Source of the DNA: Bacteroidota bacterium
Lineage (GTDB): Bacteria; Bacteroidota; Bacteroidia; Bacteroidales; JADFUO01
Length of the DNA: 45,565 nucleotides
Direction: 5' to 3'
Assembly (NCBI GenBank): GCA_030622635.1
Contig: JAUXFX010000003.1
Location: forward strand, 1-45,565
Both the position numbers and the translations under genes were made by a program. The notes beneath the pieces were generated by a model. That model did no database searches. It was given only the letters and a program-made list of their open reading frames with translations, and was not told the origin of the DNA. This document shows, in pieces, positions 25,676-31,805 of this stretch (position 1 is the first letter of the stretch; every line of letters begins with the position of its first letter).

Positions 25676-25927
25676 TGTCCGTCTATAAATTCCGAAAGTT
25701 TAAATAAATATTAAAAATCACAAATGACAAGCACCAAAATACAAAACTTGTCCGTACGAAGCAAAGCAAGTCCGTATGGATGGATAAATCTCAATGACCA
25801 AAATCTCAATATTCAAAGCTGTTTTGAACATTTGATCATTGATATTTGTAATTTATTTGTTATTTGTTATTTGTTATTTGGTGCTTCATTTTATGTAAAT
25901 CTTTGACTTTAAAGACAGGCACTAATT
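25670..25927. mobile_element. MITE-like non-autonomous element with imperfect 23-bp terminal inverted repeats and internal heptamer hairpin
   Basis: Left AATTAGTGTCCGTCTATAAATTC versus reverse complement of right end AATTAGTGCCTGTCTTTAAAGTC (19/23); internal aagcaccaaa.../...tttggtgctt inverted arms; no transposase. Confidence 0.65.
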
Positions 25928-25942
25928 AAAATCTTTCAAGAA

Positions 25943-26614
25943 ATGACCGGAAAAATACATTTAGTTATTTTTATTTCTATCCCGTTAATTATACTTATTA
26001 GCAGTTGTAATAAGAAAAAGATAAATTATTGGGAAAACGGAAATAAAAAATCGGAAATACTATACAAAAAAGGAAAAATTGATGGTATTGCTGTTTGGTG
26101 GTATGAAAACGGGAAAAAACAATTGGAATCAAATTATAAAGATAATATTTTAAATGGTTTGACTATCAGGTGGTATGATAACGGAGTTAAACAATCCGAG
26201 GCTAATTACTTAAACAATATGCTAAACGGAACTTCTATAGAATGGAATGTGTCAGGAAAAAAAATATCAGAGGAAAACTATGTTAATGATACTTTACATG
26301 GCAGTTATAAAAAATGGCATCCCATTGGTGAACTTCAAATTGAAGGTTCGTATTATAAGGGCAAGTTTGACGGATTATGGTATTATTATGATTTCAATGG
26401 TAAAGTTGTAGGTTCTGCAAATTTTCATAAAGGAACAGGCAAACAAAAAGCCTGGTACTCTAACGGGCAACTTAAAAGAGAAATTAATTATATTAATAAT
26501 TTAAAAGATGGCAAAGAGCGTTGGTGGTATGATGACGGAAAGTTGCAAAAAGTGATCACTTATGAATTTGGTGAAATAATTTCAGAGGAATCTTATTATA
26601 CTGATAGAAATTGA
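25943..26614 (+). CDS. MORN-variant repeat lipoprotein (YwqK-like)
   Basis: Lipobox LISS-C; repeated WYENG/WYDNG/WYSNG...Y units. Confidence 0.88.
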   Translation: MTGKIHLVIFISIPLIILISSCNKKKINYWENGNKKSEILYKKGKIDGIAVWWYENGKKQLESNYKDNILNGLTIRWYDNGVKQSEANYLNNMLNGTSIEWNVSGKKISEENYVNDTLHGSYKKWHPIGELQIEGSYYKGKFDGLWYYYDFNGKVVGSANFHKGTGKQKAWYSNGQLKREINYINNLKDGKERWWYDDGKLQKVITYEFGEIISEESYYTDRN

Positions 26615-26705
26615 GAATTGAGATTTGAGATTTTAGAATTAAGATTTAAAATTTAAGATTTTAGATTTCAGAATTTCTAATTTCTAATTTCCAATTTCCA
26701 ATTTA
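26607..26705. repeat. Facing 7-bp repeat arrays (AGAWTTD xN / AATTTCY xN) between convergent genes
   Basis: gaaattgagaattgagatttgagattttagaattaagattt... then aatttctaatttctaatttccaatttccaattt; overlaps both stop codons. Confidence 0.85.
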
Positions 26706-27575
26706 TACCTTCTTATAATTTTTATGTCGTCCGATTTCCAAACCGGTTGCTTTTTCCATATAATTAAGGAATTTTAGTCTGGGCGAGAGTTTTATTCCTT
26801 GGGTCGGATCAAAGTCGAAAGTCCAGTTTTGTTTGCTGATCCTTTCTTTCATAACCTCGGGATGTTCACCTTCAAATCTGGTAAGTGTATCAATTTTTGA
26901 ATAATCAAATTTATTTGTTTGAGCAATATATTTTTCAACATAATCATCGTTATGCCAAAGTTTTTCAAAAGCTTCACGTTTTGCTTGCTGTGCTTTCGGA
27001 TGTTTTACCCATCCATAGTGATAGATTGTTGCATTTACAGGTTTAACTTTTAAGAGTTTATTATTTTTTCTGAAACTCATCGCATCTTTCCATGAATGGA
27101 TTTGTTTATCGTTTCTGATAACACGAATTTGATTATATAACCATTTTCTTGAATCGGCAATATAATCATACGAACCGTAAAAATTAATATGTTTAAAAAG
27201 TAAGCCCTCAACTTTTGGATTATCTTTCCATTTTAACATTGCTTCCTTTATTGCCGGCATATCTTTTTCCGACATTATCTCATCAGCCTGGATATAGAAT
27301 GCCCAATCACTGTCAGGAGAAATGGCATCAAATGCTTTATCGGTTTCAACAGCCAGCACTTTTCCTCCTTCTCTTAAAGAATCATCCCAGATGGTTTCAA
27401 TAATCCTGATTTTTTCTGAATCTATACTTTTAATTAATCCCAGTGTATCATCCTCTGAATTACCTACTGTCACAATTACTTCATCGCAAACCGGAAGAAT
27501 GGATCTTATTGCCTCAACAATGGGAAAATCAAATTTAATTCCGTTTCTGATAATTGTAAAGCCCGAAACTTTCAT
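26703..27575 (-). CDS. Glycosyltransferase family 2 protein
   Basis: MKVSGFTIIRNG, SILPVCDE, YIQADE (DxD-like), IYHYGWVK motifs. Confidence 0.9.
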   Translation of the reverse strand: MKVSGFTIIRNGIKFDFPIVEAIRSILPVCDEVIVTVGNSEDDTLGLIKSIDSEKIRIIETIWDDSLREGGKVLAVETDKAFDAISPDSDWAFYIQADEIMSEKDMPAIKEAMLKWKDNPKVEGLLFKHINFYGSYDYIADSRKWLYNQIRVIRNDKQIHSWKDAMSFRKNNKLLKVKPVNATIYHYGWVKHPKAQQAKREAFEKLWHNDDYVEKYIAQTNKFDYSKIDTLTRFEGEHPEVMKERISKQNWTFDFDPTQGIKLSPRLKFLNYMEKATGLEIGRHKNYKKV

Positions 27576-27648: not shown

Positions 27649-29940
27649 TTAATCCGTATCATAATCCGGTAAACAATACCTGCAGCCATTATAATTATGT
27701 TTAATGGCACGTGGGATTTCTTTGTAGGCAATTTTATTTTTGTTATTCATCTTTTTTACCCATTTGCAATTATTGTTATGCAGTTCTTTTGTGTTTTTAT
27801 TTGCTATAAATGGATGCTCTCCCACAGCAAGTAATTGAGTAACACGACCCATTTCGAGGTTATCAACTAATTGTGCTACTGATATCTCATATCCTCCGTC
27901 CGGTATTGAATCAGGCAAGATAAATTCCAGTTTGGCAATACAATTATCATTTGATTTTAATTTGATATTACGCAAATAAGATTTTTTCCCGGATAAGACA
28001 TAATATTCATTGTAAAGTGTTGATTCGTTAATTTTTGATAAACCATCAGTTGAAGCCTCAATACACAATCTTTTTAATATCTTCAAATTCACTTCCATAC
28101 CTGTTGGTAAAGAACTCAGATCAATTTGAAGGTCTGAATAAATATTATTACCTGACCATCCTTGTATATGGAAATTAAGACTGTTAACTGAGCCTGCAAA
28201 CATATCTATTACATCAAAGTTTTTCCATGTTGCATTATTATTTTCCCTAATGAAGTTGTAAAAATCATTCATCGAAAGAATAGTGGCAGGGTCTGGTGCA
28301 GGATCATTACCACTGTTTACCAATGCAATAAAACAATAATGTCCCTGAGCAGGAATATCATCTGAAGGCCAAACCACAGGACCAACAACTTTAACACTAT
28401 TTGAAGGAACAGATGGAATAGTTATTTGATCAACAAGATTCCATGAAGCCGGAGTTGGAAAAGTTGAAGGGTGTGACCAATATACGGTGGCTGTTCCTCC
28501 GGTAGCATTATTTCCTCTGTTATGAACTCTGAGATAGATGTAATTGTTTTGTCCGAATTCCACCTGTTCACCAAGATTTGCCTGGCTAAGTGCTAAAGTA
28601 GTTCCCAAAATAGCTTCGGGATCGAGTAATTCCTGATTAAAAATTATTACATCAGGGCTGCATGAAATACCACCGTCAATAAGAGGTTCGCGGCCATGAT
28701 CTTCAAGATTATCTCGTAAATATAAGTCATGAGCAGGATAACCAAGAAAAATATTATCTCCTGCCCCTGCAGGTGATTCAGCTTCTACCGGTGTATCCGA
28801 ATAACCCCAATGCAGAACTACAACATCATCAGCGTAAGTATGTGCTTCAGCTGCAGAGATCCTTCCGTCAGTATTTGTGTCAACCACCTGTGAAAGAGCG
28901 CCACCATCTGCATATTGACCAGTTACTGCAGCAATCCAATCCAATGCAAACGGGTCAAAATCTGCCCCTCCGTTAGAATTTCTATCTTCTTCGCATGCTG
29001 CTGAAAAATGAGTCCATTTTGCAGTGCTGTTATTAATTACTGCATTTTCAAATCCTCCGGAATGACATTGTTCCATCATCACCATTAAAACAGCAAATCC
29101 AGGTAACTCAGCAAGTTTATTCCCAAAATCAGTGGAAGAATATTCATCCCATTCTATGTTATTATAGGCACATAAACCACTTATCGGGTATAATGGACTT
29201 GGTGGGCCATATCCATGATTATTTGTATGTATAAACAGAAAATCATCTTTTTTTAATTTTGTTTTCAGATCATCTATGGCATTTTCAAGAGCAACACCTG
29301 TTCCTTCATCATCAACAGGCATCTGGTAAGCCGTATTATCTCCAGGCCAATTATTGACCGGTTTTGGGCCACCATTATAGTTTAGTGTGCCATCATGATT
29401 TAAAACTGTGATCTTATTGGCATCAAAGCCGTAAATATCAATAAGGGTCCGGTAAAGAAATTCCATGTCATTAACATGTCTGTTGTTTGACTCACCGGAA
29501 AAAAATATAGCATACCTGTCTCCCCTGGCATTATTTAATGCATTTGTTATTGCCGGAATAGGTGAAGTAGAAAGTTTCCTGCCTTTTAACACATTTTCTC
29601 TTTTGACAGGAGTGTGAATATCTTCAAAATTTTCCGGATTTCTTATAAATTCTGCCGGAGGGAAGCATGCTTTTATTCTATTATATATTTCTCCGGTTTC
29701 AGAATCACATAAAATATGTTCACAGGGATGTGCCCAGTTTAGAGTTGGAGCCTCATCAATAAGAACAAAGGCAGTTTTTTTGGGGATGTCAATTTCTTGT
29801 AAACCTGCATTCATTTTAACTCCGGTATCAATTATATCATTCTTTAAATAAATATTGAATGCTTTCTGACAGTTCATCCTTCTCAGTCCACTAAGAACTT
29901 CATTCTTAATTTTACTTTTAATTTCATTTTTAATTTTCAT
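27649..29940 (-). CDS. Clan CD (C13 legumain-like / caspase-fold) cysteine protease with N-terminal NWxHxC domain, Ig/CARDB-like middle domain and C-terminal Ada-like Zn-binding domain
   Basis: RYAIFFSG first strand, FLFIHTNNHG (His242), VMMEQCHSGGF (Cys292), DTNTDGRIS EF-hand-like loop, NYIYLRVHNRG...GHYCFIA, C-terminal H...C...CRYC; no signal peptide. Confidence 0.85.
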   Translation of the reverse strand: MKIKNEIKSKIKNEVLSGLRRMNCQKAFNIYLKNDIIDTGVKMNAGLQEIDIPKKTAFVLIDEAPTLNWAHPCEHILCDSETGEIYNRIKACFPPAEFIRNPENFEDIHTPVKRENVLKGRKLSTSPIPAITNALNNARGDRYAIFFSGESNNRHVNDMEFLYRTLIDIYGFDANKITVLNHDGTLNYNGGPKPVNNWPGDNTAYQMPVDDEGTGVALENAIDDLKTKLKKDDFLFIHTNNHGYGPPSPLYPISGLCAYNNIEWDEYSSTDFGNKLAELPGFAVLMVMMEQCHSGGFENAVINNSTAKWTHFSAACEEDRNSNGGADFDPFALDWIAAVTGQYADGGALSQVVDTNTDGRISAAEAHTYADDVVVLHWGYSDTPVEAESPAGAGDNIFLGYPAHDLYLRDNLEDHGREPLIDGGISCSPDVIIFNQELLDPEAILGTTLALSQANLGEQVEFGQNNYIYLRVHNRGNNATGGTATVYWSHPSTFPTPASWNLVDQITIPSVPSNSVKVVGPVVWPSDDIPAQGHYCFIALVNSGNDPAPDPATILSMNDFYNFIRENNNATWKNFDVIDMFAGSVNSLNFHIQGWSGNNIYSDLQIDLSSLPTGMEVNLKILKRLCIEASTDGLSKINESTLYNEYYVLSGKKSYLRNIKLKSNDNCIAKLEFILPDSIPDGGYEISVAQLVDNLEMGRVTQLLAVGEHPFIANKNTKELHNNNCKWVKKMNNKNKIAYKEIPRAIKHNYNGCRYCLPDYDTD

Positions 29941-29944
29941 TATT

Positions 29945-29951
29945 ACCTCCT
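29945..29951 (-). promoter_or_regulatory. Canonical Shine-Dalgarno (AGGAGGT) before the protease
   Basis: Minus strand reads CAGGAGGTAATA-ATG. Confidence 0.6.
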
Positions 29952-30124
29952 GTTTTAAGTTTATTTAAATATTAATACACTTTTATTTTTAATAAATTCA
30001 GTATTAGTTTACTATTATTAGTTCCGAAAATTGATAAAAGGTAACCCCGTAAGAAGAAAAAAATTGAATTTAAAATCAATCTAAATAATAATATAATAAA
30101 TCGGATTTTATATAAAAGGAATTA

Positions 30125-30154
30125 TTCGTAGAAAATATTTTCGTAGAAAGTATT
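30125..30154. promoter_or_regulatory. 15-bp direct repeat, candidate regulator binding site
   Basis: TTCGTAGAAAATATT TTCGTAGAAAGTATT (14/15 identical) between the small gene and the protease. Confidence 0.4.
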
Positions 30155-30174
30155 TTTAGCGAATGTTAAGCTCA

Positions 30175-30537
30175 CTAATCATAAACATTAAAATGCCTGT
30201 CATCAGAAGGTTTTGATCCATATCTTAAGAGCACTCTGTAGCTATCCGGATAATCTTCATAAAAAACAGGAAACTGTTCATGAAACAGTTCGGTTTCAAA
30301 TGTCTTGGAATCAATCAGAATATATATGCATGAATGCCCCCAGTTTAGGCGAGGTTGGAGATCTATAAATGCCAAATAGCTGGGTTTTTTTACTTCAATA
30401 CTCTTTCTGCCAATATTGATAATATCTCCATTTTTGTATGGTTCATAATTCAAATAAATAATTGATTGATCTTTTTGCTCTTTTGTCAAATGGTTCAGGA
30501 TTATTTTAAGTATTTCTTCTTTATTAAGATTTTCCAT
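30175..30537 (-). CDS. Small hypothetical protein, stand-alone paralog of the protease N-terminal domain
   Basis: FIDLQPRLNWGHSCIYILIDSKTFE versus LIDEAPTLNWAHPCEHILCDSETGE; -7 box TATATTTG at 30563-30570 on the minus strand. Confidence 0.82.
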   Translation of the reverse strand: MENLNKEEILKIILNHLTKEQKDQSIIYLNYEPYKNGDIINIGRKSIEVKKPSYLAFIDLQPRLNWGHSCIYILIDSKTFETELFHEQFPVFYEDYPDSYRVLLRYGSKPSDDRHFNVYD

Positions 30538-30638
30538 TTTAAATTATTATTATTGATTTATGCAAATATAGTAAATTAATAGCTGAAAAGCAAGCATATA
30601 ATTAGTTATACTCAAGTTTTAATCCAACACCCACTTCT

Positions 30639-30974
30639 CTAAGATTTATTACTTTTTTTAGAATAAAATGTTAAAGGATGAGCTATGATGATGGGATTCT
30701 TGTGATTTAAGTTTTCTATTATTGCTTCTGTATAGAGTCTGATCAGAGGATCTAAACCCCAGGTATGATCGAGGTGTCCATGAGAAAGAACCACAAAATC
30801 TAAATTTAATAGATCAATATTTAGCTTTTGTGCATTTTTAATAAATACATCAGAATATCCTAGGTCGAATAAAATTTTATTACCTTCATCTTCAATAAAA
30901 TAAGATACTCCTGGTTCGCCATAGAAATACCGGTCAATCAGAGTATTATTATCAACAAGGACTGTTAATTTCAT
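30639..30974 (-). pseudogene. Truncated MBL-fold metallo-hydrolase (N-terminal part only)
   Basis: MKLTVLVDN, GEPGVS, ILFDLG, LSHGHLDHTWG (HxHxDH), IIAHP; stops at 111 aa, well short of a full MBL fold, with no downstream continuation. Confidence 0.78.
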
Positions 30975-31177: not shown

Positions 31178-31310
31178 GATATAACAAAAGTTTATGAATA
31201 GATCAGGTTAAGACATTGTGTGCTAACAATAAGGAAAAAAGTAAAGCAATTTAATAATGTTGAAAAATTTTAAAAACAGATTTTATAAAGCTTTACCTTT
31301 TACCAGCAAC

Positions 31311-31373
31311 CAGTAGTCGGCAGTCAGTAGTCGGCAGTCAGCAGTCAGCAGTCGGCAGTCAGTAGTCGGCAAT
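31311..31373. repeat. 7-bp tandem repeat (CRGYAGT x9)
   Basis: cagtagt cggcagt cagtagt cggcagt cagcagt cagcagt cggcagt cagtagt cggcaat. Confidence 0.92.
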
Positions 31374-31684
31374 CACATTATCCACCAGCGACACGAAGTC
31401 CATCCATACGGGCTCCTTTTAGTTGTACGGATTTACTTCGTTTCATTAGCCCGCATGGGCCCGTATGGGTAACCAGCGAAGAAATGTAAGCCGGTAGTGT
31501 AACCGGTCCGCTTTTTTTCCTGTTAAAATAACTCTTAAACAATAATTAGAATATGTGTAATGTTAATAACTTAAACATGCAGGAAAAATATTAATAATTA
31601 ATTTTGCTTTTCTATAGCTTATTATAGCTGGAATTGGTTAAAACTTAGCGTAGCGAAGATACAAACAAATTAGCTTAAGTGAAA

Positions 31685-31805
31685 GCAGTCGGCAGACAGC
31701 AGTCGGCAGTCGGCAATCGGCAGTCAGCGATTAATAGACTGAAGACTGGGGACTGAAGACTGAGGACTGACCCCGAAAGCTTTCGGGGGAGGACTGGGGA
31801 CTGAT
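31685..31805. repeat. Facing 7-bp arrays (GCAGTCR x6 / GACTGRR x7) with an inserted 18-bp palindrome
   Basis: CAGTC and GACTG cores are complementary; CCCCGAAAGCTTTCGGGG at 31771-31788. Confidence 0.9.

What the first reader, a model, noticed from the sequence alone, without database searches (positions are those of the whole stretch)
27649..30570. Candidate two-gene system: caspase/legumain-fold protease preceded by a free-standing copy of its own N-terminal domain
Seen: residues 27-81 of the 120-aa protein (30175-30537) align without gaps to residues 30-84 of the 763-aa protease. My hand count is 22/55 identities (IYL...G...N.G...I...K...ID..P.LNW.H.C..IL.DS.T.E), and both are followed by an FP motif. 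The genes are co-oriented and adjacent, neither has a signal peptide, and the protease keeps an intact His242-Gly/Cys292 dyad. Established: clan CD proteases (caspases, legumain, gingipains) are usually controlled by prodomains or homotypic adaptor domains, and bacterial caspase-like proteases act in gasdermin and type III-E CRISPR defence. Inference: the small protein is a trans-acting prodomain/inhibitor or a homotypic adaptor, analogous to CARD-only proteins, for a cytoplasmic protease. The pair could form a regulated proteolytic switch for defence, stress or cell death. I do not know of a described system with this architecture.
Basis: partly seen in the sequence, partly recalled or inferred. 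Interest (0 to 1): 0.85.

Follow-up and report, generated by a model that had tools for sequence, protein, structure and literature searches.

The report
Legumain-like protease plus free-standing domain copy
A bacterial legumain-like cysteine protease gene sits next to a small gene that encodes a separate copy of the protease's own N-terminal domain; the pairing is widespread, has no family name in the libraries searched, and probably controls when the protease is active.

Summary
The 120-aa protein (30175-30537, minus strand) matches residues 8-84 of the 763-aa protein (27649-29940, minus strand) at BLASTP E=6e-11.

The large protein is a clan CD, C13 (legumain)-like peptidase. It has His242-Gly, Glu290-x-Cys292 and an Arg154-His155 S1-pocket pair. 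Its AlphaFold2 model matches legumain best.

The pairing is conserved:
- Starting from the protease, 28 of 29 genome loci from several phyla hold a free-standing copy next door.
- Starting from the small protein, 66 of 80 metagenome loci hold the protease next door. The other 14 are cut by a contig end.

On a tree, free-standing and fused copies form two old, separate groups, so the small gene is not a decayed fragment. Neither protein matches a model in Pfam, NCBIfam or PADLOC.

Best reading (confidence about 0.5) is a prodomain-like partner acting in trans that gates a protease with no signal peptide. This resembles Spi-SpeB or LSD1-AtMC1. Binding and inhibition are inferred, not shown. A defence role has no support so far.

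I rate it a new variant of a known kind, with moderate to high interest.

The parts
30175..30537 (-). Small gene S (120 aa, P0002): free-standing copy of the 'NW' domain. The model has two helices and seven strands.
   Evidence: ORF. AlphaFold2 mean pLDDT 86.9. Family alignment A1 has invariant F57, D59, P62, N65, W66, H68 and P90. 1174 cluster representatives match at E<=1e-3.
30328..30345 (-). NWGHSC motif of S (residues 65-70). It lies mostly in the long loop between strands 53-59 and 70-76; C70 begins the second strand.
   Evidence: Translation checked. Conservation. Secondary structure.
29941..30174 (-). A+T-rich 234-bp spacer between S and the protease gene. It holds a 15-bp direct repeat at 30125-30156.
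   Evidence: No terminator-like site. In many other loci the two genes overlap by 4 bp instead.
29572..29940 (-). N-terminal NW domain of the protease (residues 1-123), the paralogue of S fused in cis.
   Evidence: BLASTP E=6e-11 against S. Same order of helices and strands as S. D62, P65, N68, W69, H71, C73 and P95 are at least 90% conserved and P94 is invariant in 78 sequences.
29722..29739 (-). NWAHPC motif of the fused N-domain (residues 68-73).
29530..29571 (-). Linker, residues 124-137 (STSPIPAITNALNN), predicted disordered. It holds Asn133, a possible Asn-specific self-cleavage site (inference).
   Evidence: pLDDT is below 50 for residues 124-137. Asn133 is present in 54 of 78 homologues.
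28741..29529 (-). C13 (legumain)-like catalytic domain, residues 138-400. Key codons: Arg154-His155 at 29476-29481, His242 at 29215-29217, Glu290 at 29071-29073, Cys292 at 29065-29067.
   Evidence: Best Foldseek match is legumain 4n6o_A (E=1.4e-9, TM 0.68 on the target). The profile of A2 matches plant legumain VPE-gamma 5obt at E=2.3e-4 and aligns RH, HG and E-x-C-x-SG. Conservation. Codons checked.
27652..28740 (-). C-terminal module, residues 401-763: beta-rich domains plus a Cys/His tail. It varies among homologues and is also found fused to an M64 metallopeptidase.
   Evidence: Secondary structure. Many homologues are only about 457 aa or carry other C-terminal domains. P0089 is M64 plus this module. 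The tail gives a weak Ada_Zn_binding hit (E=0.1, below the cut-off).

Best explanation
This is a self-contained two-gene module. The large gene encodes a C13 (legumain)-like clan CD cysteine protease with no signal peptide, so it is probably cytoplasmic. From N to C it has a roughly 120-aa alpha+beta 'NW' domain, a disordered linker, the catalytic domain, and a swappable C-terminal module. The small gene encodes an old, free-standing paralogue of the NW domain.

I propose that the small protein is a stoichiometric, prodomain-like regulatory partner acting in trans. It would dock on the protease or pair with the fused NW domain, keeping the enzyme latent or correctly folded until it is released or degraded.

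Shown here: the homology, near-obligate linkage in both directions, the age of the duplication, purifying selection, legumain-like catalytic and S1 residues, and the absence of signal peptides.

Inferred only: physical binding, the direction of the effect (inhibition is my sub-guess at about 0.35), Asn/Asp specificity, and self-cleavage in the linker.
For: 1. Linkage starting from the protease. 28 of 29 genome loci hold a free-standing 115-160-aa copy beside the protease. The loci are titled Bacteroidota, Nitrosomonas, Chlorobiaceae, Methylococcaceae, Acidobacteriota, Methylomirabilis, Kofleriaceae and others.
2. Linkage starting from the small protein. Of 80 metagenome loci seeded with the small protein's motif, 66 have the protease adjacent. 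Four have a second NW copy and then a contig end. The other 10 have no protease in view, but each has a flank of 540 bp or less. No locus has long flanks on both sides and lacks a protease.
3. In 13 of the 21 genome loci where the small gene lies downstream, the two genes overlap by 4 bp, which suggests coupled translation. The gene order flips: 7 upstream and 21 downstream, 39 and 27. I saw no genuine fusion of S to this kind of protease. The one fused form in view, P0139, looks like a frameshifted read-through.
4. Apart from synteny within one Nitrosomonas-like group, no other gene recurs at these loci.
5. All 79 fused N-domains fall on one side of a branch (SH-aLRT 98). With them are 3 rows that I had labelled S but that are N-domains of cut or broken protease genes. 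The duplication is therefore old and both copies have been kept.
6. Both paralogues keep the same motif, D..P..NW.H.C plus FPP.
7. Secreted relatives have a signal peptide and a Por_Secre_tail domain, and pass the Pfam cut-off for Peptidase_C13. They carry two NW domains in tandem ahead of the protease, where pro-regions normally sit, so two NW domains per protease recurs in a second lineage.
8. The enzyme looks active and legumain-like. His242, Gly243 and Cys292 are at least 90% conserved and Glu290 is invariant. Arg154-His155 align with the Arg-His of plant legumain. PMC4357240 (passages read) names Arg44 and His45 as S1-pocket residues in legumain.
9. 0 of 78 proteases have a hydrophobic N-terminus.
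10. Precedents exist: Spi beside speB, and LSD1 with AtMC1 (PMC2873492 and PMC4357240, passages read).
Against: - No tool result shows binding or inhibition.
- Fold matches of the small protein to inhibitor-type folds (PepSY-like YpeB/YpmB, cystatin fold, M4/M36 propeptides) reach only Z 3.5-5.2. The tool says this range is common for unrelated folds. Foldseek found nothing at E<=0.001.
- The linker is predicted disordered rather than lying in the active site.
- The invariant polar set D, N, W, H would also suit a ligand-binding pocket.
- The Cys of the motif is replaced in a few members: L005 and L009, P0139.
- Some proteases that carry an NW domain have no free-standing copy. One is the second paralogue in this genome. 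Another is the single large-frame hit in G006. The partner is therefore not needed by every relative.
- dN/dS among the five closest relatives is only weakly informative: 0.16-0.88, from 3-8 synonymous changes per pair.
Confidence: 0.5

Rival explanations
1. Homotypic adaptor or activator. The small protein pairs with the fused NW domain to assemble or dimerise the protease and switch it on, as a positive cofactor rather than a brake.
For: The two domains are paralogous. Tandem NW-NW forms exist in secreted relatives, so the two domains can work side by side. Gene overlap suggests the two proteins are made in matched amounts.
Against: No evidence of oligomerisation. By analogy, known free-standing copies of protease pro-regions act negatively: Spi, and LSD1 with AtMC1 (PMC2873492 and PMC4357240, passages read).
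Confidence: 0.15
2. Toxin-antitoxin-like or anti-phage cell-death module. The protease is a toxic effector and the small protein a labile antidote whose loss during infection or stress releases the protease.
For: The distribution is patchy. The pair is found in 5 of 5 genomes of the window's genus. Only 2 of 56 genomes from other families of the same order have any hit, and neither shows the pair. Close homologues occur in distant phyla. It is a two-gene unit with a protease and variable C-terminal binding modules. One of 10 loci has a TIR-domain neighbour.
Against: PADLOC gave 0 hits. Of the 15 flanking genes with a Pfam hit, nearly all look like housekeeping or general genes, among them IlvD, pyruvate kinase, ArgH, RpoB and aldehyde dehydrogenase. 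In 48 of the 94 paired loci (21, 27) the small gene lies downstream of the protease, which is unusual for an antitoxin (the rule is recalled, not from a call).
Confidence: 0.12
3. Folding helper or substrate. The small protein acts in trans as a folding chaperone for the protease, or is itself a substrate that the protease cuts or ligates.
For: Legumain cannot be expressed without its own accessory C domain (PMC4357240, passages read). The small protein has an invariant Asn in an exposed loop, and the enzyme keeps legumain-like S1 residues.
Against: The small protein is a well-folded, conserved domain (pLDDT 86.9), not a peptide precursor. Its C-terminus varies between clades.
Confidence: 0.1
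4. Paired ligand sensors. The NW domains bind a small molecule or metal through the D/N/W/H(/C) patch and pass that signal to the protease.
For: The invariant residues are polar or aromatic, which is typical of binding pockets. Weak fold matches include NTF2-like and LolA-like ligand binders.
Against: No match to any known sensor family. The fold matches lie in the noise range. This idea alone does not explain why a second, separate copy is kept.
Confidence: 0.08
5. The small ORF is a decaying 5' fragment of a duplicated protease gene.
For: It resembles the 5' end of the neighbouring gene.
Against: There are 1174 cluster representatives, and 140 of the best 150 are 215 aa or shorter. Columns are invariant across phyla. 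The small proteins form a group separate from every fused N-domain. The model is confident.
Confidence: 0.01

Closest known systems
SpeB-Spi of Streptococcus pyogenes (C10 cysteine protease with a neighbouring inhibitor that is an analogue of its propeptide)
   Same: The protease gene sits beside a small gene whose product resembles the protease's own N-terminal pro-region. PMC2873492 (passages read) calls Spi 'a propeptide analogue' found juxtaposed to the protease gene.
   Different: SpeB is clan CA, family C10, and is secreted. The enzyme here is clan CD and C13-like with no signal peptide. The NW domain matches no named family. Inhibition has been shown for Spi (Kagawa 2005, seen only as a reference entry) but not here.
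Metacaspase AtMC1 and LSD1 (clan CD, family C14)
   Same: A clan CD protease whose N-terminal domain has a free-standing homologue that interacts with it in negative regulation (PMC4357240, passages read).
   Different: There the shared domain is a zinc finger, not an alpha+beta NW domain. The system is eukaryotic, and I know of no neighbouring-gene arrangement for it (recalled, not from a call).
Legumain with its C-terminal AP/LSAM prodomain, and with cystatin E/M
   Same: Same catalytic fold. The His-Gly, E-x-C and Arg-His S1 residues align. Legumain is kept latent by an accessory domain that blocks the active site (PMC4357240, passages read). PDB entry 4n6o, legumain bound to cystatin E/M, was the top fold hit.
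   Different: Legumain's accessory domain is C-terminal and made of five helices (PMC4357240). Here the conserved accessory domain is N-terminal, alpha+beta, and duplicated as a separate gene. The C-terminal part here is beta-rich.
Staphopain-staphostatin and the Bacteroides Bfp-Bfi pairs
   Same: A small specific inhibitor is encoded next to a cysteine protease gene (PMC2873492, passages read).
   Different: Staphostatins are lipocalin-like and are not homologous to the protease's pro-region (PMC2873492).
CARD-only proteins next to caspase-1; trans-inhibition by gingipain N-terminal prodomains (both recalled, not checked in any call)
   Same: Free or released copies of a clan CD protease's N-terminal pro-region act on that protease.
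   Different: Different folds and different organisms. Neither case was tested or read about here.

Membership tests
Clan CD, family C13 (legumain-like peptidase) | Catalytic His (in His-Gly) and Cys dyad | tested here: met
   His242-Gly243 and Cys292 are present and at least 90% conserved in 78 homologues. They align with the HG and C of plant legumain VPE-gamma.
Clan CD, family C13 (legumain-like peptidase) | Caspase/haemoglobinase fold closest to legumain | tested here: met
   The AlphaFold2 model has pLDDT 90.2. The top Foldseek hits are legumains (4n6o_A E=1.4e-9, TM 0.68 on the target) and rank above metacaspase 9.
Clan CD, family C13 (legumain-like peptidase) | S1-pocket Arg-His on helix 1 (Arg44/His45 in legumain, per PMC4357240) | tested here: met
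   Arg154-His155 are at least 90% conserved and align with the RH of VPE-gamma. The other pocket residues, Ser216 and Asp231, were not mapped.
Clan CD, family C13 (legumain-like peptidase) | Reaches the Pfam PF01650 gathering score | tested here: not met
   P0001 gets 0 Pfam hits at E<=1. Relatives that share the NW domain do pass: P0170 scores 36.6 bits, P0277 40.4 and P0164 33.9, against a cut-off of 22.8. Part of the homologues carry a precomputed PF01650 hit. I therefore call it C13-like and divergent.
Clan CD, family C13 (legumain-like peptidase) | C-terminal activation peptide plus helical LSAM prodomain | tested here: not met
   Residues 401-763 are almost all beta-strand in the model. 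LSAM is a five-helix domain (PMC4357240, passages read).
Family C14 (caspase/metacaspase) | Closer in sequence or fold to C14 than to C13 | tested here: inconclusive
   The A2 profile hits metacaspase-4 at E=1.4e-5, but only through short stretches. It hits VPE-gamma at E=2.3e-4 through one long stretch. Foldseek ranks legumain first.
Propeptide-like inhibitor pair (Spi-SpeB type) | Small gene next to the protease gene, and homologous to the protease's N-terminal region | tested here: met
Propeptide-like inhibitor pair (Spi-SpeB type) | The small protein binds and inhibits the mature protease, and the N-terminal region is removed on activation | not testable with these tools
   This needs biochemistry. 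The model coordinates and error map were not available to me.
Known anti-phage defence systems (PADLOC-DB 2.0.0) | Match to a defence-system protein model | tested here: not met
   0 hits for both proteins at E<=1.
PepSY (PF03413) inhibitory propeptide domain | Sequence match to the Pfam model | tested here: not met
   None of the 29 members of A1 matches PepSY at E<=10. A PF03413 search of the window's genome and its four same-genus genomes finds nothing.
PepSY (PF03413) inhibitory propeptide domain | Fold similarity | tested here: inconclusive
   VIA-align Z is 5.2 (5boi YpeB), 4.6 (2gu3 YpmB) and 4.4 (7atk UipA), with 59-68 residues aligned. This is within the range the tool calls common for unrelated folds.

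The most novel reading that the evidence does not exclude
A widespread prokaryotic 'split-prodomain' legumain switch. An Asn/Asp-specific cytoplasmic protease is held by two paralogous NW domains, one fused and one free. It carries interchangeable C-terminal recognition modules (lectins, beta-propellers, a Zn-ribbon-like tail). Loss of the free domain fires it as a cell-death, stress or anti-phage effector. This would be a new family of regulated clan CD effectors in bacteria and archaea.
Probability: 0.15. Interest if true: 0.85.

Novelty: new variant of a known kind. Interest (0 to 1): 0.62.

Why it matters
Clan CD proteases such as caspases, metacaspases, legumain and gingipains are switch enzymes, and their control mechanisms are central to cell death, immunity and virulence. 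Here a large set of prokaryotic legumain-like enzymes turns out to carry an accessory domain that matches no model in the libraries searched. In one major branch, a second, separate copy of that domain is almost always encoded next door.

This gives a clear and easily tested hypothesis for how a protease without a signal peptide is kept in check. It defines a domain family that Pfam does not cover (1174 clusters at 50% identity). It also points to cultured carriers where it could be tested, by the record titles: Nitrosomonas oligotropha Nm45 and Pseudarcicella hirudinis.

If the enzyme is Asn-specific and can be gated, it could also be of interest as a controllable peptide-cutting or ligating tool, since plant legumains are already used that way. 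The PDB titles name asparaginyl ligases.

Tried and rejected
Complex prediction. I submitted P0001 residues 1-410 with alignment A2, plus P0002 with alignment A1. The verdict was 'no answer' (score 0.00, mark 0.32, controls not run). This counts neither for nor against binding.

RNA evidence. No RNA holder was listed. One run holds 0.05 of the sampled words and three hold next to none. Read laying was not used. Nothing can be said about expression.

Family libraries. Pfam, NCBIfam and PADLOC gave 0 hits for both proteins. Scanning all 29 A1 members against Pfam gave only scattered single hits at E>=0.015. The ESM Atlas returned only 'hypothetical protein' clusters with no common Pfam family.

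PepSY lead. I followed it from the weak fold hits. PF03413 found nothing in the window's genome and reached its cut-off in only 2 of 31 genomes. That was too few sequences for a profile comparison, so I dropped it.

Fold of the small protein. Foldseek against the PDB gave no match at E<=0.001. VIA-align wide gave a best Z of 5.2, within the noise range.

'The free copy equals the first of the tandem copies in secreted relatives'. I considered this. The tree rejects it: the tandem copies cluster with each other and not inside the S or N groups.

RiPP-precursor idea. Rejected because S is a conserved, folded domain whose C-terminus varies.

Longer small proteins with a hydrophobic N-terminus (7 of 140). 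All five that I inspected have an internal Met at the usual start, so their starts are probably miscalled. The same holds for L006.

Promoter and terminator scan. Promoter-like sites were not above the shuffled expectation (22 against 17.3 +/- 3.7), and there were 0 terminators. The scan does not cover Bacteroidota-type promoters.

Rfam scan of the whole window: 0 matches.

Literature. The phrases 'bacterial legumain' and 'prokaryotic legumain' had 0 occurrences in the 15 papers listed, of 49 that matched any of the four terms. The 12 papers listed for peptidase C13/legumain combined with anti-phage terms showed no bacterial C13 defence system. Searches turned up nothing on this pairing either. 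These searches cover only the held library.

Limits on the counts:
- The loci were not de-replicated. L042 and L044-L050 are near-identical. So are L015, L016, L017 and L026. L111 may be the same contig as L012.
- The tree is a 'quick' LG+G4 tree on 118 columns with SH-aLRT support only, and the tool flagged several long branches.
- Only the best 150 of the 1174 hits were visible, so rarer fused forms further down cannot be excluded.
- I could not read model coordinates or error maps. How the N-domain sits on the catalytic domain is therefore unknown to me.


Full report
WHAT IS THERE

The window holds two ORFs on the minus strand. One is a 763-aa protein at 27649-29940 (P0001). The other is a 120-aa protein at 30175-30537 (P0002). 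A 234-bp A+T-rich spacer separates them, and no terminator-like site lies between them.

BLASTP of the small protein against the large one gives 26/77 identities at E=6e-11.

THE LARGE PROTEIN

Pfam, NCBIfam and PADLOC return nothing for it, but it is clearly a clan CD enzyme of the legumain (C13) type.
- A word-seeded search found 463 homologues. Two source names among them are 'caspase family protein' and 'peptidase C13 family protein', and part of them carry a precomputed PF01650 hit.
- In an alignment of 78 of them, His242, Gly243, Cys292, Arg154 and His155 are at least 90% conserved, and Glu290 is invariant.
- A profile of that alignment matches plant legumain VPE-gamma over residues 132-323 (E=2.3e-4). 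It aligns Arg-His, His-Gly and Glu-x-Cys-x-Ser-Gly. It also matches metacaspase-4, but only through short pieces.
- The AlphaFold2 model is confident (mean pLDDT 90.2). Its best PDB matches are legumains (4n6o_A, E=1.4e-9, TM 0.68 on the target).
- PMC4357240 (passages read) names Arg44 and His45 among the residues that give legumain its Asn/Asp-specific S1 pocket. Asn/Asp specificity here is therefore a reasonable inference, not a result.

The model divides into four parts:
- an N-terminal alpha+beta domain, residues 1 to about 123;
- a disordered linker, residues 124-137, with pLDDT below 50;
- the catalytic domain, residues about 138-400;
- a beta-rich C-terminal module, residues 401-763.

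Legumain's own accessory domain is C-terminal and helical (PMC4357240). This enzyme therefore shares the catalytic core but not the known control domain.

THE SMALL PROTEIN

It is not a fragment.
- Twenty-nine free-standing homologues align along their whole length. F57, D59, P62, N65, W66, H68 and P90 are invariant, and Y28, L60, C70, Y72 and P91 are nearly so.
- A profile search of 1.84 billion cluster representatives finds 1174 proteins at E<=1e-3 and 292 at E<=1e-10. Of the best 150, 140 are 215 aa or shorter, with a median of 119 aa.
- Its AlphaFold2 model is confident (pLDDT 86.9): two helices followed by seven strands. The order of elements matches the protease's N-domain.
- The fused N-domain keeps the same motif: D62, P65, N68, W69, H71, C73, P94 and P95.
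- No solved structure matches clearly. Foldseek finds nothing at E<=0.001. VIA-align's best Z is 5.2, and its list includes PepSY-like proteins, a cystatin-fold design and M4/M36 propeptides, all in the range the tool calls common for unrelated folds.
- PepSY is not supported by sequence.

Starting from the protease. A genome-collection scan seeded with protease peptides gave 29 loci. By their record titles they come from Bacteroidota, Nitrosomonas, Propionivibrio, Chlorobiaceae, Methylococcaceae, Spirosoma, Segetibacter, Acidobacteriota, Methylomirabilis, Kofleriaceae and others.
- In 28 of the 29 loci, a free-standing copy of 115-160 aa lies directly beside the protease.
- It is upstream in 7 loci and downstream in 21. 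In 13 of those 21 the genes overlap by 4 bp.
- The exception, L028, has a broken protease frame and stops at a contig end. L029 also has a broken protease frame, but its small gene is intact.

Starting from the small protein. A metagenome scan seeded only with the small protein's motif gave 80 loci.
- 66 have the C13 domain next door: 39 with the small gene upstream and 27 with it downstream.
- 4 have a second NW copy followed by a contig end.
- 10 show no protease, but in every one a contig end lies within 540 bp on one side.
- No locus with long flanks on both sides lacks the protease.

These loci were not de-replicated. Apart from synteny within one Nitrosomonas-like group, no third gene recurs.

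AGE OF THE DUPLICATION

I built a tree of 193 NW-domain rows. All 79 fused N-domains fall on one side of a branch with SH-aLRT 98. Three rows that I had labelled 'S' fall with them, and on inspection these are N-domains of cut or broken protease genes. The free and fused copies are therefore old paralogues that have been kept together, not repeated local decay.

dN/dS among the five closest relatives is 0.16-0.88 for the small gene and 0.19-0.32 for the protease. Changes are few, so this adds little beyond the deep conservation.

WIDER FAMILY

Some relatives have a signal peptide, two NW domains in tandem, a C13 domain that passes Pfam's cut-off, and in most cases a type IX secretion sorting domain (P0170, P0250 and P0264; P0164 lacks the sorting-domain hit). 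Two NW domains per protease, placed where pro-regions normally sit, therefore recurs in a second, secreted lineage.

In the branch that includes the window:
- 0 of 78 proteases have a hydrophobic N-terminus.
- The few longer small proteins look like miscalled starts.
- C-terminal modules vary widely. About 457-aa forms have none. Others carry ricin-type lectin, hemopexin, fucose-lectin or FG-GAP-like repeats, and none of these has a signal peptide.
- The window's own C-terminal module is also found fused to an M64 metallopeptidase (P0089). This suggests it is a portable targeting module.

DISTRIBUTION AND CONTEXT

The pair is present in all 5 genomes of the window's genus. Only 2 of 56 genomes from other families of the same order give any hit, and neither shows the pair. 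The closest outside homologues come from other phyla. It therefore behaves as an accessory module.

The flanks do not look like defence islands. Of 20 neighbouring genes scanned in 10 diverse loci, 5 had no Pfam hit, and only one of the other 15 is defence-like, a TIR-domain gene. The rest include IlvD, pyruvate kinase, ArgH and RpoB. In the window the neighbours are a LysM protein, a MORN-repeat protein, a weak GT2-like ORF, a truncated metallo-beta-lactamase-fold ORF and a BatA-domain protein.

HOW IT MOST LIKELY WORKS

My best reading (confidence 0.5) is that the small protein is a stoichiometric, prodomain-like partner of the protease acting in trans. It would sit on the catalytic domain or pair with the fused NW domain, and hold the enzyme latent or stable until it is released.

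The supporting steps are near-obligate linkage, frequent gene overlap, retention of both paralogues, the pro-region position of NW domains in secreted relatives, and the lack of any genuine fusion in about 110 loci. The last point suggests the partner must stay a separate chain.

Binding, the sign of the effect, and cleavage at the partly conserved linker Asn133 (54 of 78 sequences) are inferences. The single complex-prediction job gave no verdict, and I could not read model coordinates.

The rivals are an activating adaptor, a toxin-antitoxin-like or defence module, a folding helper or substrate, and a ligand sensor. None is excluded. The decayed-fragment idea is excluded.

COMPARISON WITH KNOWN SYSTEMS

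The logic is known, but this instance matches nothing in the libraries and papers searched.
- Spi is a propeptide analogue encoded next to speB, and staphostatins sit next to staphopains (PMC2873492, passages read).
- LSD1 pairs with the LSD1-like N-terminal domain of metacaspase AtMC1, and legumain is blocked by its C-terminal AP/LSAM domain (PMC4357240, passages read).
- CARD-only proteins and gingipain prodomains are recalled parallels that I did not check.

What differs here:
- the NW domain matches no Pfam or NCBIfam model;
- the partner enzyme is C13-like, whereas the known C13 control domain is C-terminal and helical;
- both a fused and a free copy are present;
- the pairing spans bacteria and, by source names and Atlas taxa, some archaea.

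My word searches of the held paper library found no description of it. Supplements were closed.

VERDICT

I rate it a new variant of a known kind, interest 0.62.

Noticed in passing
L032:1528-3330 (own genome, contig C147, about 25705-27507): A second, more distant paralogue in the same genome. It is an ORF of at least 601 aa with an NW domain (E=3e-12) and a C13-like domain (E=7e-19). No free-standing copy lies in the roughly 1.5 kb of upstream flank held, and the ORF runs off the 3' end of the locus. The genome-wide search found only three NW-domain matches in all.
   Followed up: partly
P0164, P0170, P0194, P0250, P0264; also P0195, P0236, P0255: Secreted relatives carry a signal peptide, two tandem NW domains, a Pfam-level Peptidase_C13 domain and (not in P0164) a Por_Secre_tail sorting domain. 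Proteins of 400-424 aa, and the 595-aa P0194, have the tandem NW domains, and P0195 the sorting tail (the only one of them scanned), but no protease domain. P0255 is near-identical to the two ends of P0264.
   Followed up: partly
P0089 (654 aa), compared with window 27652-28740: The window protease's C-terminal module of about 360 aa is also found fused to an IgA-peptidase M64 domain in place of the NW and C13 domains. This suggests a portable targeting module shared by unrelated proteases.
   Followed up: partly
window 27652-27843 (-): The last 64 residues hold a His/Cys pattern (H-x3-C ... C-x2-C) and give a weak Ada_Zn_binding hit (E=0.1, 13.1 bits against a cut-off of 23).
   Followed up: partly
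window 30639-30974 (-): A 111-aa ORF holds only the N-terminal half of a metallo-beta-lactamase fold (PF00753, E=5e-14). It ends about 100 bp before the small gene and does not continue in another frame. It may be a remnant left by insertion of the two-gene module.
   Followed up: partly
window 30125-30156: A 15-bp direct repeat (TTCGTAGAAAATATT, 2.1 copies, 94% match) lies in the spacer between the small gene and the protease gene. It could be an operator or a promoter element.
   Followed up: no
window 31304-31375 and 31684-31770: Two arrays of 7-bp tandem repeats (CAGCAGT, GCAGTCG and AGACTGA types) flank a non-coding stretch of about 300 bp. There is no Rfam match anywhere in the window.
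   Followed up: no
L015:7881-8447 and the matching genes in L012, L013, L016, L017, L021, L026, L029: In the Nitrosomonas-like group, the pair is followed by a lone Pvc16_N (contractile-injection-system tail protein) domain gene (E=1e-35). After that come a conserved 286-aa ORF with no Pfam hit and a large PAS/histidine-kinase gene.
   Followed up: partly
L022:4862-5695: A TIR-domain gene (PF13676, E=6e-24) lies directly upstream of the pair in the Methylomirabilis locus. It is the only defence-like neighbour among the 20 flanking genes scanned.
   Followed up: no
P0098, P0100, P0102, P0104: Homologues with no signal peptide carry C-terminal ricin-B lectin, fucose-lectin-like, hemopexin or FG-GAP-like repeat domains. 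These domain types are usually extracellular.
   Followed up: no
L028:5911-6905 and L029:6001-6994: In these two MAG loci the protease reading frame is broken into pieces. In L029 the neighbouring small gene is intact. Assembly error cannot be told from a pseudogene here.
   Followed up: no
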